Positions 6,914-17,630 of a stretch of 60,553 bases of DNA are shown one piece after another. The notes below the pieces were generated by a model. That model did not search any database. It was not told the DNA's origin and saw only the letters and a list, made by a program, of their open reading frames with translations. How positions within the stretch are numbered: position 1 is the stretch's first letter; every line of letters begins with the position of its first letter. The position numbers were made by a program, and so were the translations under genes. Source of the DNA: Candidatus Pacearchaeota archaeon (lineage in GTDB: Archaea > Nanobdellota > Nanobdellia > Pacearchaeales > GW2011-AR1); NCBI GenBank assembly GCA_016181895.1, contig JACOYL010000010.1, positions 1 through 60,553 of the forward strand. Reading direction: 5' to 3'.

Positions 6914-7357
6914 ATGAATTGCCCATATTGCGGAAATACAAGTTTAAAGGTTACTGACAAGCGCCCTTATAACCGCGGAGAGGGGATAAGGCGAAGAAGA
7001 GAATGCCTGAAGTGCAGGAAAAGATTCACGACGCATGAAAAAATCGACCAGGGCGATTTTTACGTCATAAAAAAGGACAGTACTAGGGAAAAATTCAGCA
7101 GGGAAAAACTTGAACGCGGGGTTCAAAGGGCGTTTGAAAAGCGCCCGATTTCAAAGGAGCAGATTGAAAAAATGATAAACGAGGTTGAAGAGCAGTTGAG
7201 AAGAAAGGGAAAGAAGGAAATAAAGAGTTCTGTCATCGGGGAAATAATCATGAAGAAAATGAAAAAAATCGACAATGTGGCTTACATAAGGTTCGCCTCT
7301 GTTTACAGGAATTTTCAGGATGTTCAAGATTTTAAAAAAGAATTAAAGGAATTGTAA
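6914..7357 (+). CDS. nrdR: transcriptional repressor NrdR
   Basis: CPYC...[17 protein letters not shown] Zn ribbon plus ATP cone; AYIRFASVY. Confidence 0.95.
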
Positions 7358-7359
7358 AA

Positions 7360-8547
7360 ATGCTGCAGGAATTTGAAATACTCGACGATTGGGAAAAGGA
7401 AATTGTTTATGAAAAGCTTGACAAGGAAAAAGAAAAAACAATTGATTTGGAATTTGAAATCCTGGAAGAATGGGAAGAGGAATTGAATGACAGGTTGTAC
7501 GAGGAAAAACCTGTTTCTGCTTTGCAGGAATATGTTCCCGAGGTTTTTCACGAACAAAAAACTTTTCAAAGCGAGGAGGAACTTCAAAAAATAAGCCCCG
7601 ACAGGTTTGTTTTGTTTCCGATTGAAAACCACAAGATTTGGGAATTTTACAAAAAAGCGGAAGCCTCGTTTTGGACGACAGAGGAAATAGATTTGCATCA
7701 GGATTTGACAGACTGGAACAAATTGAACGAAAAAGAAAAGCATTTTCTCAAGCATGTTCTGGCTTTTTTTGCAGCCAGCGACGGAATCGTGACTGAGAAT
7801 TTGGCTGTGAATTTCATGAAAGACGTAACAAATCCCGAGGCAAGATGTTTCTACGGATTCCAAATTGCAATGGAAAACATTCACAGCGAAACCTATTCTC
7901 TTTTGATTGACACATACATAAGGGACAAGGAAGAGCAGGATTATCTTTTTAACGCGCTTGAAAACATTCCGGTAGTTAAGAAAAAAGGCGAGTGGGCTTT
8001 GAAATGGCTCAATGAAAAAAACACGACTTTCGCGGAAAGATTGATTGCCTTTGCCGCCGTCGAGGGAATTTTTTTCTCCGGAAGTTTTTGCTCGATTTTC
8101 TGGCTGAAAAAAAGAGGTTTGATGCCCGGCTTGAGTTTCAGCAATGAATTAATTTCCAGAGACGAAGGCATGCACTGCGATTTTGCGTGCCTGCTTCACA
8201 GCATGCTTAGAAATCCGACAAACGAAAAAAGAATAAAGGAAATAATCGACGAAGCCGTGAAAATAGAAAGGGAATTCGTCACTTCCGCCTTGCCTGTTGA
8301 TTTGATTGGAATGAACAACAAGCTCATGGCGCAATACATTGAATTCGTCGCCGACAGATTACTGGTTGCGTTGGGATGCACAAAAATTTATAATTCGTCA
8401 AATCCGTTTCCGTGGATGGAACTTATTTCCCTCGAAGGAAAAACAAACTTCTTCGAAAAAAGGGTTTCAGACTATCAAAAAGCAGGAGTGATGGAAAAAA
8501 ACAAGGAGGTGTCTGTGAAGGTATTTCGCCTGGACGAGAGTTTTTGA
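7360..8547 (+). CDS. nrdB: class Ia ribonucleotide reductase beta subunit with acidic N-terminal extension
   Basis: [17 protein letters not shown] (radical Tyr), [23 protein letters not shown]. Confidence 0.95.
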
Positions 8548-8553
8548 TTAAAA

Positions 8554-8859
8554 ATGGAAATAAAAGAAACACAAGAAAAAGTGGATAAAATAATAAAACA
8601 GTATGGAGGATATTGGGAACCTCTATCAATGCTGGCTCGACTTGTAGAAGAAGTTGGGGAATTGTCCCGAGAACTGAACATAGAATATGGAGGCAAAAAA
8701 AAGAAATCTGAATCAGATGGAAGAGAAATCCAAAAAGAATTAGCAGATATAACATTCACTATTCTAGCAATTGCAAATGCACTTAAAATTGATTTAAATA
8801 AAGAAATAAATGAAAAAATAGAAAAAGATTTGCAAAGAAACAGGGGGATTTATTATTAA
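8554..8859 (+). CDS. MazG-like nucleotide pyrophosphohydrolase
   Basis: [13 protein letters not shown]...ELADI. Confidence 0.9.
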
Positions 8860-8860
8860 A

Positions 8861-11308
8861 ATGACAATGCAAGTTATAAAGCGGGACGGAAGGAAGGAAC
8901 CAGTGAGTTTCGACAAGGTTTTAGAAAGAGTTCAAAGACTTTGCGACGGTTTGAACAGGCAATTTGTGGATCCTTCAGAGATAGCGAAAAAAGTCATCGA
9001 GGGGATTTATGACGGAGTCACGACATCTGAATTGGACGAACTCGCGGCGGAAACAGCGGCGAGTTTGAGCACCGTTCATCCCGATTATTTGAAGCTTGCG
9101 GCGCGGATTTCAATAAGCAATCTTCAAAAACAAACGAGCAATTCCTTCTCGGAAACAGTTGACATTCTTTACAATTATGTGCATCCTGAAACCGGAAAAC
9201 AGGCGGGAATGATTGGCGACGGAACCTACAAGGCTGTGATGGAAAACAAGGATTTGCTCGACGGAGTTATCGATTACAAGAGGGATTACAATTACGATTA
9301 TTTCGGATTCAAAACTCTTGAAAGGGCGTATCTTTTGAAAGTCAACGGAAAAGTCGTTGAAAGGCCGCAGCATTTGCTTATGCGCGTCGCGGTTGGAATC
9401 TGGGGAAGCGACATACAAAACGTGATTAAATCCTATGAATTGTTCAGCCAGGGATATTTCACGCATGCGACGCCGACATTGTTCAACTCCGGAACAAAAA
9501 GGCCGCAGTTGTCAAGCTGTTTCCTTGTTGCAATGAAAAGCGACAGCATAGACGGAATTTATGAAACACTGAAAAACATAGCCGTGATTTCAAAATATGC
9601 CGGAGGGATTGGAGTTCACATGCACAACATTCGCTCAAGCGGTTCATACATAAGGGGAAGCAACGGAATGAGCAACGGATTGGTTCCGATGCTTCGCGTT
9701 TACAACGCAACGGCAAGATATGTAGATCAGGGAGGAGGAAAAAGAAAAGGCGCGTTCGCCGTTTATTTGGAGCCGTGGCATTCTGATATTTTTGAATTTC
9801 TTGATTTGAGAAAAAACACGGGAAGCGAGGAGCTCAGGGCCAGGGATTTGTTTTATGCTCTTTGGATTCCGGATTTGTTCATGAAAAGAGTCGAGGAAAA
9901 CGGCAACTGGAGTTTATTCTGTCCTGATGAATCCCCCGGATTGTCGGATGTTTACGGAATTGAATTTGAAAGATTGTACTTGAAATACGAATCTGAAAAA
10001 AAAGCGAGAAAAATTGTAAAAGCCAGGGAGCTATGGGCGAAAATCGTCGAGAGCCAGATAGAAACTGGAAATCCCTACATGCTCTACAAGGATTCTGTAA
10101 ACAGAAAATCAAACCAGAAAAATCTCGGGACGATAAAATCCTCGAATCTTTGCACAGAAATTGTTGAATACACAGACTCCGATGAAACAGCTGTCTGCAA
10201 TCTTGCCTCCATTGCCTTGAATAAATTCGTAAGGGAAGACAGGAGTTTTGATTACAAGGACCTTTATGAAGTTGCCTATCAAGTCACGAAAAATCTCAAC
10301 AGGATTATCGACGTGAATCACTATCCGATTCCGGAGGCAAGGAAATCGAATCTCAGGCACAGACCCATAGGAATCGGAGTCCAGGGATTGGCAAACGCGT
10401 TTGCATTAATGAGGTTTCCCTTTGCATCGGACGAGGCAAAGGAAATCAATAAAAAAATCTTTGAAACAATTTACTTTGCCGCTTTGACCGCAAGCAAGGA
10501 CCTGGCAAAAACCGAAGGCACTTATGAAACTTTCCAAGGCTCTCCCGCTTCAGAGGGAATTCTGCAGTTTGACATGTGGAACGCAAAGCCGAGCAACATG
10601 TGGCCCTGGAATTCTTTAAGAGAGGAAATAAAAAAATACGGTTTGAGAAACAGCCTTCTTGTGGCTCCGATGCCCACTGCATCGACTTCGCAAATTCTCG
10701 GAAACAACGAATGCTTCGAGCCTTTCACGTCAAACATCTATACAAGAAGAACGCTTTCAGGAGAATTCATAATGATAAACAAATATCTCGTCGAGGATTT
10801 GATAAAACTCGGATTGTGGAACAACGAAATAAAAAACAAGATAATTTCCGGAAACGGAAGCATACAAAACATCCAGGAAATACCGAAAGAAATAAAAGAA
10901 TTGTACAGGACTGTTTGGGAAATAAAACAGAAGGACTTGATTGACATGGCTGCCGATCGCGGGGCTTTCATAGATCAAAGCCAGTCATTGAACATCTGGA
11001 TGAAGGATCCGACTTTTGCAAAAATCACAAGCATGCATTTTTACGGCTGGAAAAAAGGACTGAAAACAGGTATGTATTATTTGAGGACAAAGGCGGCGTC
11101 GCAGGCGATACAATTCACAGTCGACAAGTTTTTGGAAAAAACTTCCGAGACAAAAATAATTCCTGAAAATAAGTTGGATTCTTTCCCTAACAAATCCTTG
11201 AATGATTTCACGGGGCAAAACACAACGGAGAAAAATTCCTTGGAAAAAAAAGACAATGCATTTTGCACCTTGGATAATCCTGAAGATTGCGAGGCTTGCA
11301 GCAGCTGA
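8861..11308 (+). CDS. nrdA: class Ia ribonucleotide reductase alpha subunit (eukaryote-like subtype)
   Basis: ATP cone, [34 protein letters not shown]-terminal CEAC. Confidence 0.97.
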
Positions 11309-11329
11309 AAAACCGAGGAAAATTCGAAA

Positions 11330-11482
11330 ATGAAAAATGAATTTGATGAGGAAATTGATTTAACAAGAGAAGAAATTGATGGGTTGGAAGAAACAACTGA
11401 ATCTTTAAGAAATTATGGTAAATTTCATTTTAATTTTGATAAAAAGGATATTATAATTAATTGCAGGGGGTTGCAAATTTAA
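11330..11482 (+). CDS. small acidic hypothetical protein (50 aa)
   Basis: Hand translation MKNEFDEEIDLTREEIDGLEETTESLRNYGKFHFNFDKKDIIINCRGLQI; fills the nrdA-nrdD gap. Confidence 0.5.
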   Translation: MKNEFDEEIDLTREEIDGLEETTESLRNYGKFHFNFDKKDIIINCRGLQI

Positions 11483-11517
11483 GGAATTAAATTTTAAAAT
11501 AAACAAAGAAAATAAAA

Positions 11518-13560
11518 ATGGTGAAAAAAGTAAGAAAAAGGGATGGAAGCGTCGTGCTTTTCGACGGCAACAAAATCACGGAAGCAATTTGGAAAGCCGC
11601 GAAAGCAGTTGGGGGAAAAGACAGGGAAAGGGCGGAAAATGTTTCAGGTTTGGTTGTAAAAGAACTGGAAAAGAAACACGGGGAAAACGGAATTCCCGGA
11701 GTCGAGGAAATCCAGGACATCGTGGAAAAAATGCTGATAGAAGAGGGGCATGCAAAAACCGCGAAGGCTTACATATTGTACAGAAAAAGCCACGAGGAAT
11801 TGAGGAGCATAAAGGAATTGTTCGACACGATTGAAGTCGTCGAGGATTACATCGGATTGAACGACTGGATGATAAAGGAAAATTCCAACATGGGTTTCTC
11901 TCTGCAGGGATTGAACAATTACATAACGACGAAAATAATCACGAATTACTGGATCAGGAGAATTTATCCGGAAGTGATAAGAAAAGCCCACGAAAACGTC
12001 GACTTGCATCTGCATGATTTGGGAACCCTTGGAGCGTATTGCGTCGGCTGGGATTTGAAGGACTTGCTTACAATCGGATTCAAGGGAGTTCCGGGAAAAG
12101 TCGAGTCAAAACCCGCAAAACATTTGAGGTCTGCTCTCGGGCAGGTTGTGAATTTTTTCTACACGCTTCAAGGAGAAACCGCGGGAGCGCAGGCATTTTC
12201 AAATTTTGACACGCTTCTCGCTCCCTTTGTAAGATACGACGATTTGAATTACCCGCAAATAAAACAGGCGATGCAGGAATTTCTTTTCAATTTGGCTGTT
12301 CCCACAAGAGTCGGATTTCAAACGCCGTTCACAAACATAACTTTGGACTTGAAAGTTCCGGAATACATGAAAGACGAACCGGTAATCATCGGAGGGGAAA
12401 TGAAAAAGGAAACCTACAAAGAATTCCAAGAAGAGATGAACATGCTCAACAAGGCATTTGCGGAAATCATGATTGATGGCGACGCCGCCGGAAGGCCTTT
12501 TACTTTTCCGATTCCGACGTACAACATAACAAAAGATTTCGATTGGGACAATCCTTCCTATGAACCCATATGGGAAATGACTGCAAAATACGGAATCCCT
12601 TATTTTTCAAATTTCATCAATTCGGACATGAAACCAGAGGATGCAAGAAGCATGTGCTGCCGTCTCAGATTGGATCAAACGGAATTGAGAAAAAGGGGCG
12701 GAGGGCTTTTTGGAGCGAATCCGCAAACAGGTTCCATAGGCGTTGTCACGATAAACATGGCGAGAATCGGATTCACTTCCGGAGATGAGGAAGAATTTTT
12801 CAAAAAACTCAACGAGCTGATGGAGCTTGCAAAGGAAAGCTTGGAAATAAAAAGAAAAGCGCTTGAAAAATTCACAGACTTAGGACTTTACCCCTATTCG
12901 AAATTTTATTTGAGCAACATCAAAAAAAGATTCAACGGATACTGGAAAAATCATTTTGCCACGATAGGATTGCTGGGAATGAACGAGGCAATAGTGAATT
13001 TCATGCCGGGAGAAAACATCGCCTCTGAAAAAGGAAGAAATTTTGCCTTGAGGGTTTTGGATTTCATGAGAAAAAAACTCGAGGAATATCAGGAAGAAAC
13101 CGGCAACATATACAATCTGGAAGCAACTCCCGGAGAGGGAACAACTTATCGCTTCGCCAAGAACGACAAGAAAAGATTCGGAAGAATTATCGTCGCCAAC
13201 GAACACGCTGTAAAAAACGGGGGAAATCCCTATTACACTAATTCAACCCATCTTCCTGTAAATTACATGGACGACGTTTTTGAGTCCCTTGAACTGCAGG
13301 ACGATTTGCAGACAAAGTACACGGGAGGAACGGTTTTGCACATTTTTATAGGGGAAAAACTTGAAAAAAACGACGTCAAGATTTTAATCAAAAAAATCGC
13401 GGAAAATTTCAGGCTTCCTTATTTTACCCTGACGCCGACATTTTCCATTTGCCCGAATCACGGTTATCTTGCCGGAGACCACGAGTATTGTCCGAAATGC
13501 GACGAGAAAATCGGTTATCTTGAAAAAGAATTAAACTTGAAAATAAAACAGGGAGGTTAA
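11518..13560 (+). CDS. nrdD: class III anaerobic ribonucleotide reductase, large part (lacks glycyl-radical loop)
   Basis: ATP cone, HLHDL, AYCVGW, SMCCRL, LEATPGE, KYTGGT, CxxH...CxxC; ends without RxxGY. Confidence 0.95.
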   Translation: MVKKVRKRDGSVVLFDGNKITEAIWKAAKAVGGKDRERAENVSGLVVKELEKKHGENGIPGVEEIQDIVEKMLIEEGHAKTAKAYILYRKSHEELRSIKELFDTIEVVEDYIGLNDWMIKENSNMGFSLQGLNNYITTKIITNYWIRRIYPEVIRKAHENVDLHLHDLGTLGAYCVGWDLKDLLTIGFKGVPGKVESKPAKHLRSALGQVVNFFYTLQGETAGAQAFSNFDTLLAPFVRYDDLNYPQIKQAMQEFLFNLAVPTRVGFQTPFTNITLDLKVPEYMKDEPVIIGGEMKKETYKEFQEEMNMLNKAFAEIMIDGDAAGRPFTFPIPTYNITKDFDWDNPSYEPIWEMTAKYGIPYFSNFINSDMKPEDARSMCCRLRLDQTELRKRGGGLFGANPQTGSIGVVTINMARIGFTSGDEEEFFKKLNELMELAKESLEIKRKALEKFTDLGLYPYSKFYLSNIKKRFNGYWKNHFATIGLLGMNEAIVNFMPGENIASEKGRNFALRVLDFMRKKLEEYQEETGNIYNLEATPGEGTTYRFAKNDKKRFGRIIVANEHAVKNGGNPYYTNSTHLPVNYMDDVFESLELQDDLQTKYTGGTVLHIFIGEKLEKNDVKILIKKIAENFRLPYFTLTPTFSICPNHGYLAGDHEYCPKCDEKIGYLEKELNLKIKQGG

Positions 13561-13561
13561 A

Positions 13562-13729
13562 ATGGAAATTAAACGAACAAGATGCGAAAGATACTCAAGA
13601 ATTGTCGGGTATCTGAGACCCTTGGAACAATGGAACGAAGGAAAAAGGGCTGAATGGGACGACAGGAAAATGTTCAAGATAGCGATTGAAAATGTTAATA
13701 AAAGGGCTGCAAAAAACAACGCTGATTGA
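13562..13729 (+). CDS. stand-alone NrdD C-terminal glycyl-radical domain (55 aa)
   Basis: GGAGG SD; MEIKRTRCERYSRIVGYLRPLEQWNEGKRAEWDDRKMF...; not in the ORF track. Confidence 0.9.
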   Translation: MEIKRTRCERYSRIVGYLRPLEQWNEGKRAEWDDRKMFKIAIENVNKRAAKNNAD

Positions 13730-14393
13730 TTATCCCGGGAAAGTAGCCTGCACGATTTTCTTGTTCGGCTGCAATTTTCGCTGCGGTTACTGCCACAATC
13801 CTGAATTAGTCGCAACCCCTGAAAATTTTTCATATTCTGAAAATGCAATTCTTGATTTTCTTGAAAAACGAAAAAGGTATCTTGAAGGAGTTTGCATAAC
13901 AGGCGGAGAGCCTTTGATGAATATTGATTTGGAATTCCTGAGGAAAATAAAAAATCTTGGATATAAAATAAAATTGGACACAAACGGGAGTTTTCCCGAA
14001 AAACTGAAAAAGATAATTGAAGAAGAACTTGTCGATTACATTGCAATGGACATAAAAGCCTCAAAGGAAAACTATGAAAAAGTTGTCAATTCGAATGTTT
14101 CAATTGAAAAAATCGAGGAGAGCATTGCGATAATTTCAGATTTTCCCGAGCATGAATTCAGAACCACGATTGTTAAAAGATTTCACAATGCCGAGGAAAT
14201 AAAGAAAATCATGATTTGGCTCAATGAAATTAGCAAAAAGAAGGATTTAAAGTACTATCTTCAGGGATTTAAAAACTCGGGAAAACTTCTGGATTCGGGA
14301 TTTTCATCAGAGAAGAATGTTGATGAAGTTTATTTGCTGGAATTGAAAAAAATTTGCGAGCCAAACTGCAAGGAAGTGATTGTAAGAGTTTGA
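13692..14393 (+). CDS. nrdG: anaerobic RNR activating radical-SAM protein
   Basis: CNFRCGYCHN, ITGGEP, KLDTNG, EFRTT. Confidence 0.92.
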   Translation: MLIKGLQKTTLIDYPGKVACTIFLFGCNFRCGYCHNPELVATPENFSYSENAILDFLEKRKRYLEGVCITGGEPLMNIDLEFLRKIKNLGYKIKLDTNGSFPEKLKKIIEEELVDYIAMDIKASKENYEKVVNSNVSIEKIEESIAIISDFPEHEFRTTIVKRFHNAEEIKKIMIWLNEISKKKDLKYYLQGFKNSGKLLDSGFSSEKNVDEVYLLELKKICEPNCKEVIVRV

Positions 14394-14443
14394 TTGAGAA
14401 CATAAATTTTTATAAATTTGCTTTTAGTTTTTTTCAAATGCCC

Positions 14444-14863
14444 ATGGAAATAAAAGTTCAAAAAATTCACCCGGATGCAAAAATCCCTATGTATGCTCAT
14501 CATGGAGATGCCGGTATGGATTTGTTTGCTATTGAAAATTACAATTTAAAATCTGGAGAAAGAAAAATATTCGGAACGGGATTGAAAATAGAAATTCCTA
14601 AAGGATATGTAAGTTTGATTTGGGACAAAAGCGGAATTGCAAGTAAGGGGATAAAAACGATGGGAGGGGTTATAGAACACACTTATCGAGGGGAATATAA
14701 AGTTATTTTAGTGAACCTTTCAAATGAGAGTTATGAAATAAAAACAGGCGATAAAATAGCGCAATTGCTTATTCAACCGGTAGAAACGGCAACTGTTATT
14801 GAAGTTAATGAATTGGGCGAAACACAAAGAGGAGACGGCAGTTTCGGAAGCACGGGAAGATAA
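14444..14863 (+). CDS. dut: trimeric dUTPase
   Basis: AGMDL, DKSG, GVIEHTYRGE, IAQL, RGDGSFGSTG; TTTATAAA about 30 nt upstream. Confidence 0.9.
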   Translation: MEIKVQKIHPDAKIPMYAHHGDAGMDLFAIENYNLKSGERKIFGTGLKIEIPKGYVSLIWDKSGIASKGIKTMGGVIEHTYRGEYKVILVNLSNESYEIKTGDKIAQLLIQPVETATVIEVNELGETQRGDGSFGSTGR

Positions 14864-14944
14864 TACATAACCTCTCAAAAGTAATCAAAAAATCATATAT
14901 AATTTTATAATAGGTTTATTTCTTAGGTTTTATAAGAGAGGAAA

Positions 14945-17122
14945 ATGGCTTCGGAAAAATTCATTCAAAATTTAAAGGAAATGAAATGGCCGCAGGAATT
15001 CGGCGAGAAACTCGAATTGGGAAATCTCGACAGCAACATCGGAATAGCTGTCTTGTGGTCTTTCAAAGATGTTGTTTCAAAAAATCTCGACAAAAAAGAC
15101 TATGCGATTTTGGGAAATTATTATGACAGGAAAAACGGGCTCGAGCCCCTGATAAGAAACTGCCTTGCAAATCCCAACATAAGATACATAATTCTTCTCG
15201 GAAACGACAAGGCCCAAAGCAAGGATGTTTTAAGGAATTTTTTTGAAAAGGGATTTGATGAAAAAGGTTTTGTCGTGGGAACAGAGGCTCGGATTCCAAG
15301 GGGAATTCCTTTTGAGGATTTGGAAAAACTGAAACAAAACGTGAAAATTTTTGACGTCACGGAAAAAGTAAAGGATCAAAACAACTCCGAGGACTATGCA
15401 AAAGCGATAAAAGAAATCCTGGCTTCCTTGGAAAAAAAAGAGCCTTATGACGAGCCGAAATTGTACGAGAAACAAGCATTGGAAACAGATTCTTTTCCCT
15501 CGGAAAAAGTAGGATTTGTAGCAAGAGGAAAAACCATAGGGGAAGTTTGGTTGAAATTGTTGCACAATGTTTACAATTACGGGACGATAACCAAAATGAA
15601 AGTAAAGGATTCCGAACAAATCAGAGTAATCACAGACATAATTTCTGTTGTTTCCGATGAAGATCCCGACAATCCAAAAATGGAGCCATATTTCAGGTTT
15701 GATGAAAAATATCTCAAATCATATTATGATGAAATCTGCACAGACAAAATTCCTGAGGGCACAATTTATACATACGGTTCAAGATTGAGGAGATGGGAAG
15801 GAAAAAACGGAATGAAGATTGACCAAGTCATTGATGCAATAGAATATTTAAAACCGGACATTCTAAGAACCTCCGCGGTCATGCAAACATGGATTGTCGA
15901 AGATGAATTGACAAGAAGGTATCTAAACAAGGATAAAAACAGCCCGTGCATTGTTCTCGTTCATCCTTTTGCTCCGGACGGAAAATTGCACATGACTTCC
16001 TATATAAGAAGCAATGACATGTTTCGTGCATGGCCTTTAAACGCATTCGGCTTGAGAAAACTGCAGAAAATAATTGCTCAGGGTTTGGAAATTGATATGG
16101 GGGACTTGATTATAATTTCATCAAGCGCGCACATTTATCAGGACTGTTGGAACGACACAAAAGAAATTCTGAAAGAATATTATAAGGAAGAAAACACTTT
16201 TTCAGATCCAAGGGGATATTACACGATAGTTTTGAAACAGGGAAAAATAAAAGTTGACCATTATTCTCCGGACAGCCAATTGCTGAAAGAATACTCTGGG
16301 ATTTCGGCGAGGGAAATAAACAATCAGATAAACTCAAGTCAGCATCCTTCCGATTCCTTTCATTCTTCTTACTTGGGCGAAGAGTTGATGAAAGCCCAGA
16401 TTGCATTGGAAAACGGGCTTGAATACACTCAGGATTCGCCCCTGAAAATTTCTTTAAATCAATTAAATCAGCAATCATGTGATACAAATTCAAATGCGAT
16501 AAAAATCAATCTGGAAAAAAATGAAACCTATCTTGAAAAAGAGATGACAAAATTGGATGAAATATTCAGGGAGCATATTGAAGAATCCAAAAAAAAGGGA
16601 AAGGATTTGTTTGAGCACTGGAAAAAGCCGGAGTGGGACGAATATTTCATGTCAATGGCTGTTCTTATCTCGATGCGTTCAATAGATCCAAGCCAAAAAA
16701 ACGGATGCGTTATCGTCGACGAAAACCACAAAGTTCTCAGCATAGGTTACAACGGATTTCCCCGCGGTTCTCAGGACGAATTGATTCCTCTTACACGCCC
16801 GGAAAAATATCTTTTCATAGAACACGCCGAGAAAAATGCGATATTGAACAAGCAATTCGACATAAAGGGCTCGACTTTATACAACGTGGGTTTTCCCTGT
16901 TTGCCGTGTTTCAGGTCGATAATACAATCGGGAATAAAAAGAGTTGTTTACCTTGACAAAATAAAATCAAGGATAATTTCGGAAGAGGACGAGGAAGCGA
17001 TTAAAAAATTGATGATTGGGCGAGAAGATTTAACCCTGGAAAAATTTGAAAAAGACCCTTTGCAATGCTTGTACAAGGCGATTGAATATTACAAGATGAA
17101 AACAATGTCGAAGGAAAAATAA
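14945..17122 (+). CDS. MtrA-like / thymidylate synthase / DUF4346-like / dCMP deaminase fusion
   Basis: LANPNIRYIILLG; YTYGSRLR, SPC, RSNDMFRAWPLN, SAHIY; DPRGY...HSSYLGEEL..A..AL....YTQD; WDEYFM, GYNG, HAEKNA, PCLPC. Confidence 0.85.
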   Translation: MASEKFIQNLKEMKWPQEFGEKLELGNLDSNIGIAVLWSFKDVVSKNLDKKDYAILGNYYDRKNGLEPLIRNCLANPNIRYIILLGNDKAQSKDVLRNFFEKGFDEKGFVVGTEARIPRGIPFEDLEKLKQNVKIFDVTEKVKDQNNSEDYAKAIKEILASLEKKEPYDEPKLYEKQALETDSFPSEKVGFVARGKTIGEVWLKLLHNVYNYGTITKMKVKDSEQIRVITDIISVVSDEDPDNPKMEPYFRFDEKYLKSYYDEICTDKIPEGTIYTYGSRLRRWEGKNGMKIDQVIDAIEYLKPDILRTSAVMQTWIVEDELTRRYLNKDKNSPCIVLVHPFAPDGKLHMTSYIRSNDMFRAWPLNAFGLRKLQKIIAQGLEIDMGDLIIISSSAHIYQDCWNDTKEILKEYYKEENTFSDPRGYYTIVLKQGKIKVDHYSPDSQLLKEYSGISAREINNQINSSQHPSDSFHSSYLGEELMKAQIALENGLEYTQDSPLKISLNQLNQQSCDTNSNAIKINLEKNETYLEKEMTKLDEIFREHIEESKKKGKDLFEHWKKPEWDEYFMSMAVLISMRSIDPSQKNGCVIVDENHKVLSIGYNGFPRGSQDELIPLTRPEKYLFIEHAEKNAILNKQFDIKGSTLYNVGFPCLPCFRSIIQSGIKRVVYLDKIKSRIISEEDEEAIKKLMIGREDLTLEKFEKDPLQCLYKAIEYYKMKTMSKEK

Positions 17123-17306: not shown

Positions 17307-17630
17307 ATGGCAAACAATGGAATTCCAGAATTGAGCAAGGGCGAATTTGAGAACTACATAAAAGAGGGCAGCATCCTCATAGATTTCTTCGCGGACTGGT
17401 GCATGCCCTGTGTAATGATGTCTCCTGTTCTCGAAGAGCTTTCTGAAAAATTTCATGGAAAGATAAAATTCGGCAAGATAAATGTCGATGACAATCAGGC
17501 TCTCGCCCAAAAGTTCAACGTGGTTTCGATTCCCAATTTTGTTTTATTCAAGGATGGAAAAAAGGCGGAGCAGTTCATAGGGGCGATGCCTCTCGAGGAA
17601 TTTGAGAAAAGGCTGAGAAAGATTGTGTGA
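17307..17630 (+). CDS. trxA: thioredoxin
   Basis: DFFADWCMPC, SIPNF..FKDG. Confidence 0.95.
   Translation: MANNGIPELSKGEFENYIKEGSILIDFFADWCMPCVMMSPVLEELSEKFHGKIKFGKINVDDNQALAQKFNVVSIPNFVLFKDGKKAEQFIGAMPLEEFEKRLRKIV

What the first reader, a model, noticed from the sequence alone, without database searches (positions are those of the whole stretch)
14945..17122. Four-domain thymidylate factory: MtrA-like + ThyA + DUF4346-like + dCMP deaminase
Seen: one 725-aa ORF carries an MtrA-like N-domain, a ThyA-type core with its catalytic Cys (SPC), a DUF4346-like domain and an intact Zn deaminase (HAE, PCxxC). The MtrA-like segment NPNIRYIILLGND lacks the downstream His that ligates cobamide in methanogen MtrA. 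No DHFR is in the window. Inference: dCMP to dUMP to dTMP channelling, with the accessory domains possibly binding or recycling a non-standard C1 carrier such as a host-derived pterin.
Basis: partly seen in the sequence, partly recalled or inferred. Interest (0 to 1): 0.7.

Follow-up and report, generated by a model that had tools for sequence, protein, structure and literature searches.

The report
Long thymidylate synthase fused to deaminase
This gene of a tiny symbiotic archaeon joins the enzyme that makes the DNA letter T to the enzyme that feeds it. It also carries two extra domains of unknown role, and the same core enzyme in hundreds of other microbes occurs without the usual folate-recycling partner, so it may use its cofactor in an undescribed way.

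Summary
ORF 14945..17122 (+, 725 aa) carries four Pfam domains, all above their gathering scores: MtrA-like, ThyA, PterinBD-DUF4346 and dCMP deaminase. The ThyA and deaminase catalytic residues are intact. The MtrA cobalt ligands His84 and Glu54 are replaced, as they are in all 86 aligned relatives.

The 725-aa protein is a variant of a larger family. The roughly 500-aa core (MtrA-like + short archaeal ThyA + DUF4346) is large and, as far as I could find, unstudied. It gives 461 loci in GTDB species representatives and 313 clusters at 50% identity, from DPANN archaea, CPR bacteria and a few cyanobacteria. The deaminase is an occasional add-on, fused at least three separate times. Other members carry thymidylate kinase or dUTPase instead.

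Neighbouring genes are almost all dTTP-pathway genes. No folate, pterin, B12 or reductase family appeared among the 25 commonest. This genome has no FolA, ThyX, SHMT or FolD. Across 22 genomes whose only ThyA-type enzymes are non-canonical, none has a clear FolA. In the five that also have a canonical thyA, FolA lies next to that gene.

Most likely reading: this is the cell's only dTMP synthase with a built-in dUMP supply, and its accessory module replaces the canonical cofactor lid and the FolA cycle. Which cofactor it uses is unresolved.

The parts
14945..17122 (+). Whole 725-aa ORF: MtrA-like + ThyA core + DUF4346 + linker + dCMP deaminase
   Evidence: ORF list. Pfam and NCBIfam. AF2 model with mean pLDDT 85.
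14981..15421 (+). MtrA-like Rossmann-type domain (residues 13-159) without the MtrA cobalt ligands
   Evidence: PF04208 at 41.3 bits. PDB 5LAA E=3.7e-9, with His84 aligned to Lys93 and Glu54 to Arg62. The His84 column is K/G/R in 86 relatives; Y60, D88 and S92 are conserved instead.
15521..16189 (+). Short archaeal-type ThyA core (residues about 193-415) with the catalytic Cys335 (SPC, nt 15941-15949)
   Evidence: TIGR03283 matches 193-403 over profile positions 3-199 of 201, at 111 bits. PF00303 scores 69 bits. Foldseek top hits are ThyA structures at E about 1e-13.
16205..16435 (+). PterinBD-DUF4346 domain (residues 421-497), three strands then two helices, with signature D421, G424, H473, E480, A484, Y494, Q496, D497
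   Evidence: PF14251 at 65.7 bits. Same coordinates in the genome scan. Signature from alignments A1 and A2. Domain model pLDDT 90. No PDB relative by sequence or fold.
16436..16630 (+). Linker between DUF4346 and the deaminase, partly disordered
   Evidence: pLDDT below 50 for residues 507-528. Three-domain relatives end at about residue 505.
16631..17047 (+). dCMP deaminase domain (residues 563-701) with HAE (nt 16823-16831) and PCxxC (nt 16895-16909)
   Evidence: PF00383 at 66.6 bits. Human dCMP deaminase 2W4L E=1.7e-26 over 563-701. Motif positions.
14864..14944 (+). AT-rich spacer before the ORF with TATA-like runs and a GAGAGG just upstream of the ATG
   Evidence: Read directly from the sequence. 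Promoter function not tested.
14354..14863 (+). dUTPase gene directly upstream (context)
   Evidence: PF00692 at 105 bits.
6914..14393 (+). Upstream dNTP-supply genes (context): nrdR, class I nrdB, MazG-like, nrdA, class III nrdD, nrdG
Evidence: Pfam for all but nrdD. ORF list.
17307..17630 (+). Thioredoxin gene downstream (context)
   Evidence: PF00085 at 96.5 bits. Thioredoxin is a neighbour in only 3 of 148 neighbours elsewhere.

Best explanation
This ORF is the organism's only thymidylate synthase. It belongs to a 'long' archaeal type: an MtrA-like domain, a short methanogen-type ThyA core and DUF4346. A dCMP deaminase has been fused to its C-terminus.

Shown:
- All four domains and both catalytic centres are intact.
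- The genome holds no other ThyA or ThyX, and no FolA, SHMT or FolD.
- The three-domain core is a large conserved family embedded in dTTP-pathway operons.
- Its carriers lack FolA unless a second, canonical thyA is present.

Inferred:
- The deaminase turns dCMP into dUMP beside the synthase.
- Cys335 attacks C6 of dUMP as in classical ThyA, and C5 receives the one-carbon unit.
- The short ThyA core lacks the C-terminal strands and tail that close over the folate in canonical ThyA, and DUF4346 is grafted at exactly that point.
- The MtrA-like and DUF4346 domains therefore act together as a built-in cofactor module. It holds the one-carbon or reducing cofactor at the active site, so the enzyme does not depend on a FolA-type dihydrofolate cycle.

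My preferred cofactor is a scavenged reduced pterin kept on the enzyme and re-reduced by something other than FolA. A His-on cobamide of the MtrA kind is excluded by the sequence.
For: Domains and residues:
- Domain calls, ThyA residue mapping and conservation.
- The ThyA fold is confirmed.

Sole thymidylate synthase in the genome:
- One PF00303 match and no ThyX.
- No FolA, SHMT or FolD.

Family size: 461 loci in GTDB species representatives and 313 clusters at E<=1e-30. All 80 fetched loci have the three-domain order.

Neighbours: of 148 same-strand neighbours, 27 are Tmk, 16 dCTP-deaminase-like, 16 dCMP deaminase and 8 dUTPase. None of the 25 most frequent families is a folate, pterin, B12 or reductase family.

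FolA pattern:
- 15 of 15 census genomes with the long ThyA and no canonical ThyA lack FolA, and 13 of these 15 also lack SHMT.
- Seven further carriers, including two large cyanobacterial genomes without ThyX, have no clear FolA.
- All five genomes with both ThyA types keep FolA next to the canonical thyA.
- 43 of 48 canonical-ThyA genomes have FolA.

Position of DUF4346: the methanogen-type profile ends at residue 403, while three canonical ThyA profiles run on to 442-444, into the first hairpin of DUF4346.

Recurrent fusion: dTTP-pathway enzymes have been fused to the core repeatedly. The deaminase needs 5 changes on the tree and has at least 3 separate lineages. Tmk and dUTPase fusions also exist.
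Against: - No ligand is identified. DUF4346 has no solved relative, and I could not read the inter-domain geometry of the model because coordinates are not exposed.
- Stand-alone short archaeal ThyA genes in the same phylum also occur without FolA. FolA-independence may therefore belong to the archaeal ThyA core, or to unknown reductases, rather than to the accessory module.
- DUF4346 also occurs alone or fused to unrelated partners: a BtuF-like binding protein, ferredoxin, and a gene coupled to an AP-endonuclease-type TIM barrel. Its role may be generic.
- Paralogues that keep the MtrA-like domain and DUF4346 but have lost the ThyA catalytic core exist (L007, L009, L013). This hints at a non-catalytic role.
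- The genome is only 90% complete.
- Non-FolA dihydrofolate reductases (FolM/PTR1-type, DmrX-type) were not searched.
Confidence: 0.55

Rival explanations
1. Ordinary chemistry with decorative domains. The ThyA core uses scavenged methylene-tetrahydrofolate or a methanopterin-like carrier exactly as classical ThyA does. The dihydro product is recycled by an unrecognised reductase or by the host. The MtrA-like and DUF4346 domains serve only assembly, stability or allosteric regulation, for example sensing dNTPs.
For: - The short stand-alone archaeal ThyA also lacks FolA in this phylum.
- DUF4346 has heterogeneous partners and contexts.
- Paralogues without a catalytic core keep both accessory domains.
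- The His, Glu and Tyr residues that bind cobamide in MtrA are gone.
Against: - The module is constant in all 80 loci and in 313 clusters.
- Both domains have invariant polar residues, which looks like a binding site (Y60, D88, S92; D421, H473, E480, Y494, Q496, D497).
- No reductase gene is among the 25 families most frequent in the neighbourhood.
- Two free-living cyanobacteria with megabase-scale genomes carry it as their only thymidylate synthase, without FolA.
Confidence: 0.2
2. Corrinoid-linked thymidylate synthesis. The MtrA-like domain still binds a cobamide, either His-off or ligated by the invariant His473 of DUF4346. The cobamide hands a methyl group or electrons to Cys-activated dUMP, so no dihydrofolate is made.
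For: - The domain is homologous to the cobamide carrier MtrA.
- A related CPR protein, L097, fuses an MtrA domain that keeps the histidine ('GKESGH', 113 bits) to a divergent ThyA, between dCMP deaminase and Tmk genes.
- DUF4346 is fused to a BtuF-like binding protein and to ferredoxins, and one of this genome's free DUF4346 genes lies between two B12-binding radical SAM genes.
- His473 and Glu480 lie seven residues apart on one helix, so probably on the same face.
- Earlier notes of this scan raise the same idea, but they are not independent evidence.
Against: - In all 86 relatives the His84, Glu54 and Tyr18 positions are non-conservatively replaced.
- No methyl-loading enzyme (MtrH, AcsE or MetH type) and no B12 gene is among the 25 families most frequent in 148 neighbours.
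- Other free DUF4346 genes have no B12 context.
- A later check recorded in the scan's notes found no enrichment of the B12 route (not tested here).
Confidence: 0.15
3. Not a dTMP synthase. The ThyA-fold core is a pyrimidine hydroxymethylase or another base-modifying enzyme.
For: Foldseek also finds ThyA-fold hydroxymethylases and hydroxylases: MilA, and the phage enzyme AfhB with target-normalised TM-score 0.80. The score against the methanogen-type ThyA model is below its cut-off (111 against 174.55).
Against: - It is the only thymidylate-synthase candidate in a genome that needs thymine.
- Asn366, the equivalent of E. coli Asn177 that selects dUMP, is invariant, as are the equivalents of Tyr94, His207 and Tyr209.
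- Thymidylate kinase is the commonest neighbour and a fusion partner.
Confidence: 0.05

Closest known systems
Classical thymidylate synthase ThyA (EC 2.1.1.45; E. coli, L. casei)
   Same: Same fold (Foldseek E about 1e-13). Same nucleophile and dUMP-binding residues: Cys, Arg-Ser-x-Asp, Asn, His-x-Tyr and Tyr94.
   Different: - The core is the short archaeal form, without the C-terminal strands and cofactor-closing tail.
- It is flanked by an MtrA-like domain and DUF4346.
- It is not coupled to FolA or SHMT.
Methanogen-type thymidylate synthase (NCBIfam TIGR03283, about 200 aa)
   Same: This is the best-matching family. The match is end to end (profile positions 3-199 of 201). These enzymes also occur in organisms without FolA. 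[quoted passage not shown]
   Different: The score of 111 bits is below the equivalog cut-off of 174.55. The methanogen enzyme is a single domain, whereas here the core sits between two extra domains and carries a deaminase.
Bifunctional DHFR-TS of protozoa and plants
   Same: A thymidylate synthase fused on one chain to another enzyme of the same cycle. It is the precedent for channelling between fused partners.
   Different: The partner there is DHFR. Here there is no DHFR domain anywhere in the genome; the fused partners are a dCMP deaminase and two uncharacterised domains.
Flavin-dependent thymidylate synthase ThyX
   Same: Occurs in genomes without FolA ('Life without dihydrofolate reductase FolA', cited in PMC9931769). 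The long ThyA shows the same distribution.
   Different: The fold is unrelated and no PF02511 match exists. No flavin-binding domain is recognised here.
MtrA, the cobamide subunit of methyl-H4MPT:coenzyme M methyltransferase (PDB 5LAA, 5L8X)
   Same: Homologous Rossmann-type domain, including the NPNIR(Y/F) motif.
   Different: The cobalt ligand His84, its partner Glu54 and the base-stacking Tyr18 are all replaced. There is no membrane anchor.
dCMP deaminase (human DCTD 2W4L; phage and bacterial ComEB-type enzymes)
   Same: HAE and PCxxC zinc site; E=1.7e-26 to 2W4L.
   Different: It is fused behind a thymidylate synthase. The closest free relatives are deaminase-NUDIX proteins (P0087, P0089, P0100).

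Membership tests
ThyA thymidylate synthase (PF00303) | Profile and fold match | tested here: met
   69.1 bits against a cut-off of 24.3. Foldseek E about 1e-13 to many ThyA structures.
ThyA thymidylate synthase (PF00303) | Catalytic Cys and dUMP-binding residues (E. coli C146, R166, S167, D169, N177, H207, Y209, Y94) | tested here: met
   They map to C335, R355, S356, D358, N366, H396, Y398 and Y277, all invariant or nearly invariant in 86 relatives.
ThyA thymidylate synthase (PF00303) | C-terminal strands and tail that close over the folate cofactor | tested here: not met
   The core ends like the 201-position methanogen-type profile, at residue 403. DUF4346 follows from residue 421. There is no canonical C-terminus.
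ThyA thymidylate synthase (PF00303) | Functional coupling to FolA (DHFR) and SHMT | tested here: not met
   No PF00186, PF00464 or PF02882 in the genome. None of 22 genomes with the long ThyA and no canonical ThyA has a clear FolA.
ThyA thymidylate synthase (PF00303) | dTMP formation from dUMP | not testable with these tools
   Needs an enzyme assay or complementation.
Methanogen-type ThyA (TIGR03283 equivalog) | Score above the curated cut-off | tested here: not met
   111.4 bits against 174.55, although the match covers positions 3-199 of 201.
MtrA cobamide-binding subunit (PF04208) | Profile match | tested here: met
   41.3 bits against 25. 5LAA E=3.7e-9.
MtrA cobamide-binding subunit (PF04208) | His84 lower axial cobalt ligand with its Glu54 partner | tested here: not met
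   His84 aligns to Lys93 and Glu54 to Arg62. The columns are K/G/R and R/K/V in 86 relatives. Residue roles are from PMC4915002.
MtrA cobamide-binding subunit (PF04208) | Part of a membrane MtrA-H complex (C-terminal anchor, mtrB-H genes) | tested here: not met
   The domain is N-terminal in a soluble fusion. The neighbours are dNTP-supply genes. No genome-wide search for mtrB-H was made.
PterinBD-DUF4346 (PF14251) | Profile match and signature residues | tested here: met
   65.7 bits against 29.6. D421, G424, H473, E480, A484, Y494, Q496 and D497 match the family signature.
PterinBD-DUF4346 (PF14251) | Pterin binding (implied by the Pfam name) | not testable with these tools
   No paper found for the domain. 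No solved relative. The only link seen here is that it is also the C-terminal part of the archaeal dihydropteroate-synthase-like profile TIGR00284.
dCMP deaminase (PF00383, EC 3.5.4.12) | Zinc-site motifs H-A-E and P-C-x-x-C, and similarity to solved dCMP deaminases | tested here: met
   Motifs at 627-629 and 651-655. 66.6 bits. 2W4L E=1.7e-26.
Bifunctional DHFR-TS | DHFR domain on the same chain | tested here: not met
   No PF00186 match in the protein or the genome.

The most novel reading that the evidence does not exclude
The long ThyA is a third cofactor logic for making thymidylate, beside folate-oxidising ThyA and flavin-dependent ThyX. It would be a ThyA-fold enzyme whose MtrA-like and DUF4346 module keeps and recycles its own one-carbon or reducing cofactor: a retained pterin re-reduced in place, or a corrinoid ligated by the DUF4346 histidine. 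It would release no dihydrofolate. This would explain how hundreds of DPANN, CPR and some cyanobacterial species make dTMP with no FolA, no ThyX and often no SHMT.
Probability: 0.3. Interest if true: 0.9.

Novelty: new variant of a known kind. Interest (0 to 1): 0.62.

Why it matters
Thymidylate synthesis is essential and is a classic drug target. The textbook rule is that ThyA and FolA form one coupled unit, and that ThyX is the only FolA-free alternative.

Here a ThyA-fold enzyme with two conserved extra domains is the only thymidylate synthase found, in genomes that lack FolA, ThyX and mostly SHMT. This holds across DPANN archaea, CPR bacteria and two free-living cyanobacteria.

If the extra domains supply or recycle the cofactor, three things follow:
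- It would be a new way of running the reaction.
- It would bear on the old question of how archaeal short ThyA enzymes work.
- It would show how ultra-small symbionts, which cannot make folate, still make DNA.

The four-domain version in this window is a convenient single-gene construct for testing this, because it carries its own dUMP supply.

Tried and rejected
- **Literature:** searches for DUF4346, PF14251, PterinBD, MJ0301, and for MtrA or DPANN together with thymidylate synthase, found nothing on this architecture. Two older papers could not be opened.
- **DUF4346 against the PDB:** a profile search found no hit at E<=10. Foldseek of a confident domain model found nothing at E<=0.001, only weak ribosomal-protein and sugar-kinase fragments that I treat as noise.
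- **Whole-protein Foldseek:** it returned only ThyA-fold hits. Model coordinates are not exposed, so domain contacts could not be read.
- **Word-based searches:** searches with the DUF4346 region or the N-domain alone recovered only the same family or fragments.
- **Home-made deaminase HMM:** it was contaminated by thymidylate-kinase tails and mislabelled L038 and four P-entries. This was corrected with Pfam. The neighbour counts given in this report are the Pfam ones.
- **A single theme for DUF4346 contexts:** the partners are heterogeneous (BtuF-like, ferredoxin, MtrA-like, and an adjacent AP-endonuclease-type gene), so I draw no conclusion from them.
- **Assembly artefact as the cause of the fusion:** rejected, because independent assemblies carry the same fusion.
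Full report
**1. What is in the sequence**

The ORF at 14945..17122 (+) encodes 725 residues. Pfam finds four domains in this order, all above gathering score:
- MtrA, residues 13-159.
- Thymidylat_synt, residues 276-443.
- PterinBD-DUF4346, residues 421-497.
- dCMP_cyt_deam_1, residues 563-670.

The best NCBIfam model is the methanogen-type thymidylate synthase TIGR03283. It matches end to end (residues 193-403 against profile positions 3-199 of 201) but scores below its cut-off. An AlphaFold2 model built on 86 relatives is confident (mean pLDDT 85), apart from a linker at 507-528 and a loop in the deaminase. Foldseek places the core firmly in the ThyA fold.

**2. Catalytic residues**

The mapping is:

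| E. coli | This ORF |
|---|---|
| Tyr94 | Tyr277 |
| Cys146 | Cys335 |
| Arg166 | Arg355 |
| Ser167 | Ser356 |
| Asp169 | Asp358 |
| Asn177 | Asn366 |
| His207 | His396 |
| Tyr209 | Tyr398 |

All are invariant or nearly so in the family. Asn at the Asn177 position is the dUMP-selecting residue (established knowledge of ThyA).

The deaminase has HAE (627-629) and PCLPC (651-655). Its best solved relative is human dCMP deaminase (E=1.7e-26).

In the N-domain the MtrA motif NPNIRY is kept. The cobalt ligand His84, its hydrogen-bond partner Glu54 and the base-stacking Tyr18 align to Lys93, Arg62 and Lys22. In 86 relatives the His column is K/G/R and never His. Y60, D88 and S92 are conserved instead.

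**3. It is one variant of a large family**

- The roughly 500-aa core (MtrA-like + ThyA + DUF4346) dominates the homologue list. Where a source names it at all, the name is usually 'thymidylate synthase'.
- A scan of one genome per GTDB species found 461 loci.
- The 80 best loci are from Woese-, Pace-, Nano-, Aenigm- and Micrarchaeota, from Kerfeld-, Nealson- and Parcubacteria and other CPR bacteria, and from three cyanobacteria. All 80 have the same three-domain order.
- An exhaustive HMMER search gives 313 clusters (50% identity) at E<=1e-30.
- In the window's own phylum, 18 of 151 genomes carry it.

The fourth domain varies:
- dCMP deaminase in the window's clade of 12, in L033 and in P0115.
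- Thymidylate kinase in P0023, P0026, P0035, P0102 and L038.
- An N-terminal dUTPase in P0034.

On a FastTree of 180 cores, the deaminase fusion needs five changes and sits in at least three separate lineages. The fusion is real, because independent assemblies carry it.

**4. Genomic context**

In the window the gene closes a dNTP-supply cluster: nrdR, nrdB, a MazG-like gene, nrdA, nrdD, nrdG, dut, this gene and trx.

Across the 80 loci I scanned 148 same-strand neighbours within 1.2 kb with Pfam:

| Family | Neighbours |
|---|---|
| Thymidylate kinase | 27 |
| dCTP-deaminase-like | 16 (8 also match the DCD N- and C-terminal domain models) |
| dCMP deaminase | 16 |
| dUTPase | 8 |
| Thioredoxin | 3 |
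| Canonical ThyA | 3 |

No DHFR, SHMT, FolD, pterin, cobamide or flavin-reductase family is among the 25 most frequent. This makes a role in dTTP synthesis hard to doubt. It also gives no hint of an outside cofactor-recycling partner.

**5. The FolA pattern**

The window's genome (736 kb, 90% complete) has one ThyA-family gene and no ThyX, FolA, SHMT or FolD.

In the 151-genome census:
- Canonical bacterial-type ThyA is present in 48 genomes, and 43 of them have FolA, usually adjacent.
- Of the 18 genomes with the long ThyA, only three have FolA (G005, G097, G109). In each, FolA lies next to a second, canonical thyA; in G005 and G109 glyA is in the same cluster.
- The 15 genomes with the long ThyA and no canonical ThyA have no FolA, and 13 of them have no SHMT.

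Among nine further carriers:
- The two with a clear FolA (G156, G157) again have it next to a canonical thyA.
- Two cyanobacterial genomes (7.5 and 3.7 Mb) have the long ThyA as their only ThyA-family match, with no ThyX and no FolA.
- One CPR genome (G151) has a weak partial DHFR_1 match (27.9 bits). One cyanobacterial MAG (G155) has a sub-threshold DHFR_1 match and a fragmentary ThyX hit.

Two caveats apply. Short stand-alone archaeal ThyA genes in the phylum are also FolA-free, and alternative reductases were not searched.

**6. What the accessory domains might do**

The methanogen-type ThyA profile stops at residue 403. Three canonical ThyA profiles run on to 442-444, into the first hairpin of DUF4346. 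So DUF4346 is attached where canonical ThyA has the C-terminal strands and the tail that closes over the folate (established knowledge of ThyA).

DUF4346 is also the C-terminal part of the archaeal dihydropteroate-synthase-like profile TIGR00284. It is present in M. jannaschii, M. acetivorans, S. acidocaldarius and Synechococcus elongatus.

Its signature, D..G…H..YLG.EL.KA…Y.QD, is kept in the ORF. The domain model is confident: three strands then two helices, pLDDT 90. It has no solved relative by sequence or fold.

Elsewhere in the phylum DUF4346 occurs in several forms:
- Alone. This genome has two free copies, one of them between two B12-binding radical SAM genes.
- Fused to a BtuF-like binding protein.
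- Fused to a 4Fe-4S ferredoxin.
- Fused to an MtrA-like domain plus a ThyA remnant that has lost the catalytic core.
- Translationally coupled to an AP-endonuclease-type TIM-barrel gene.

These contexts do not point to one ligand.

A CPR protein, L097, fuses an MtrA domain that keeps the histidine to a divergent ThyA without DUF4346, between dCMP deaminase and Tmk genes. So a corrinoid link exists somewhere in the wider group, but this family has lost the MtrA ligand set.

**7. Conclusion**

I am about 80% sure that this is the cell's dTMP synthase with a fused dUMP-producing deaminase.

My preferred mechanism for the extra domains has a confidence of about 55% for the whole statement. They form a built-in cofactor module that replaces the canonical lid and makes the enzyme independent of FolA, most likely by retaining a reduced pterin.

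Rivals:
- Ordinary chemistry with structural or regulatory domains and an unknown reductase (0.2).
- A His-off or DUF4346-ligated corrinoid relay (0.15).
- A base-modifying enzyme rather than a dTMP synthase (0.05).

**8. Earlier notes of this scan**

This scan has met the family many times (139 notes hold the searched words), and some notes favour a B12-dependent route. I treated these as leads only. My own data confirm the architecture, the distribution and the existence of a His-retaining relative. They also show that in this three-domain family the MtrA cobalt ligands are uniformly absent.

No paper describing the architecture was found.

Noticed in passing
L007:934-2109 (+), L013:457-1596 (+), L009:572-1606 (+): Paralogues of 344-391 aa keep the MtrA-like domain and DUF4346, but the ThyA part between them is reduced to a remnant without the catalytic Cys region, and Pfam sees no ThyA. 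G007 (source of L007) also carries FolA, a full-length ThyA and a short archaeal ThyA; G016 (L013) has only a short ThyA and no FolA; G013 (L009) has ThyA matches but no FolA.
   Followed up: partly
L008:1297-2427 (-); L011:467-1069 (+); L012:559-1137 (-): DUF4346 is fused to a BtuF-like periplasmic-binding-protein domain (PF01497) in L008. It is fused to a single-cluster 4Fe-4S ferredoxin in L011 (by Pfam) and apparently in L012 (by similarity, not scanned).
   Followed up: partly
Own genome C8:20611-21069 (+) and C10:78312-78638 (+), outside the window: There are two further free-standing DUF4346 genes in the same genome. The C8 copy lies between two B12-binding radical SAM genes (PF02310 + PF04055).
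   Followed up: partly
L097:1327-3003 (+): A 558-aa CPR protein fuses an MtrA domain that keeps the cobalt-ligand histidine (GKESGH; PF04208 at 113 bits) to a very divergent ThyA-like C-terminal part without DUF4346. It is flanked by a dCMP deaminase gene and by a downstream gene that reads like thymidylate kinase (not scanned with Pfam).
   Followed up: partly
L082, L095 (cyanobacterial genomes G153, G154): Free-living cyanobacteria (7.5 and 3.7 Mb MAGs) carry the long ThyA followed by a separate dCMP deaminase gene. Neither has a ThyX, canonical ThyA or FolA match.
   Followed up: partly
L002:698-1776, L003:1483-2557, L004:1483-2560: A free DUF4346 gene overlaps the end of a roughly 255-aa gene. 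In L002 that gene is a xylose-isomerase-like / AP-endonuclease-2 TIM barrel by Pfam; the L003 and L004 genes look the same by sequence. The pairing is conserved in three genomes.
   Followed up: partly
window 6914-14393: nrdR with an ATP-cone, class I nrdB and nrdA with a small MazG-like gene between them, then class III nrdD and nrdG, all on one strand ahead of dut and the fusion gene. This is an unusually complete dNTP-supply cluster for a 0.7-Mb genome.
   Followed up: partly
P0087, P0089, P0100: The closest free relatives of the deaminase domain (71-83% identity) are deaminase-NUDIX fusion proteins, which suggests where the fused domain came from.
   Followed up: no
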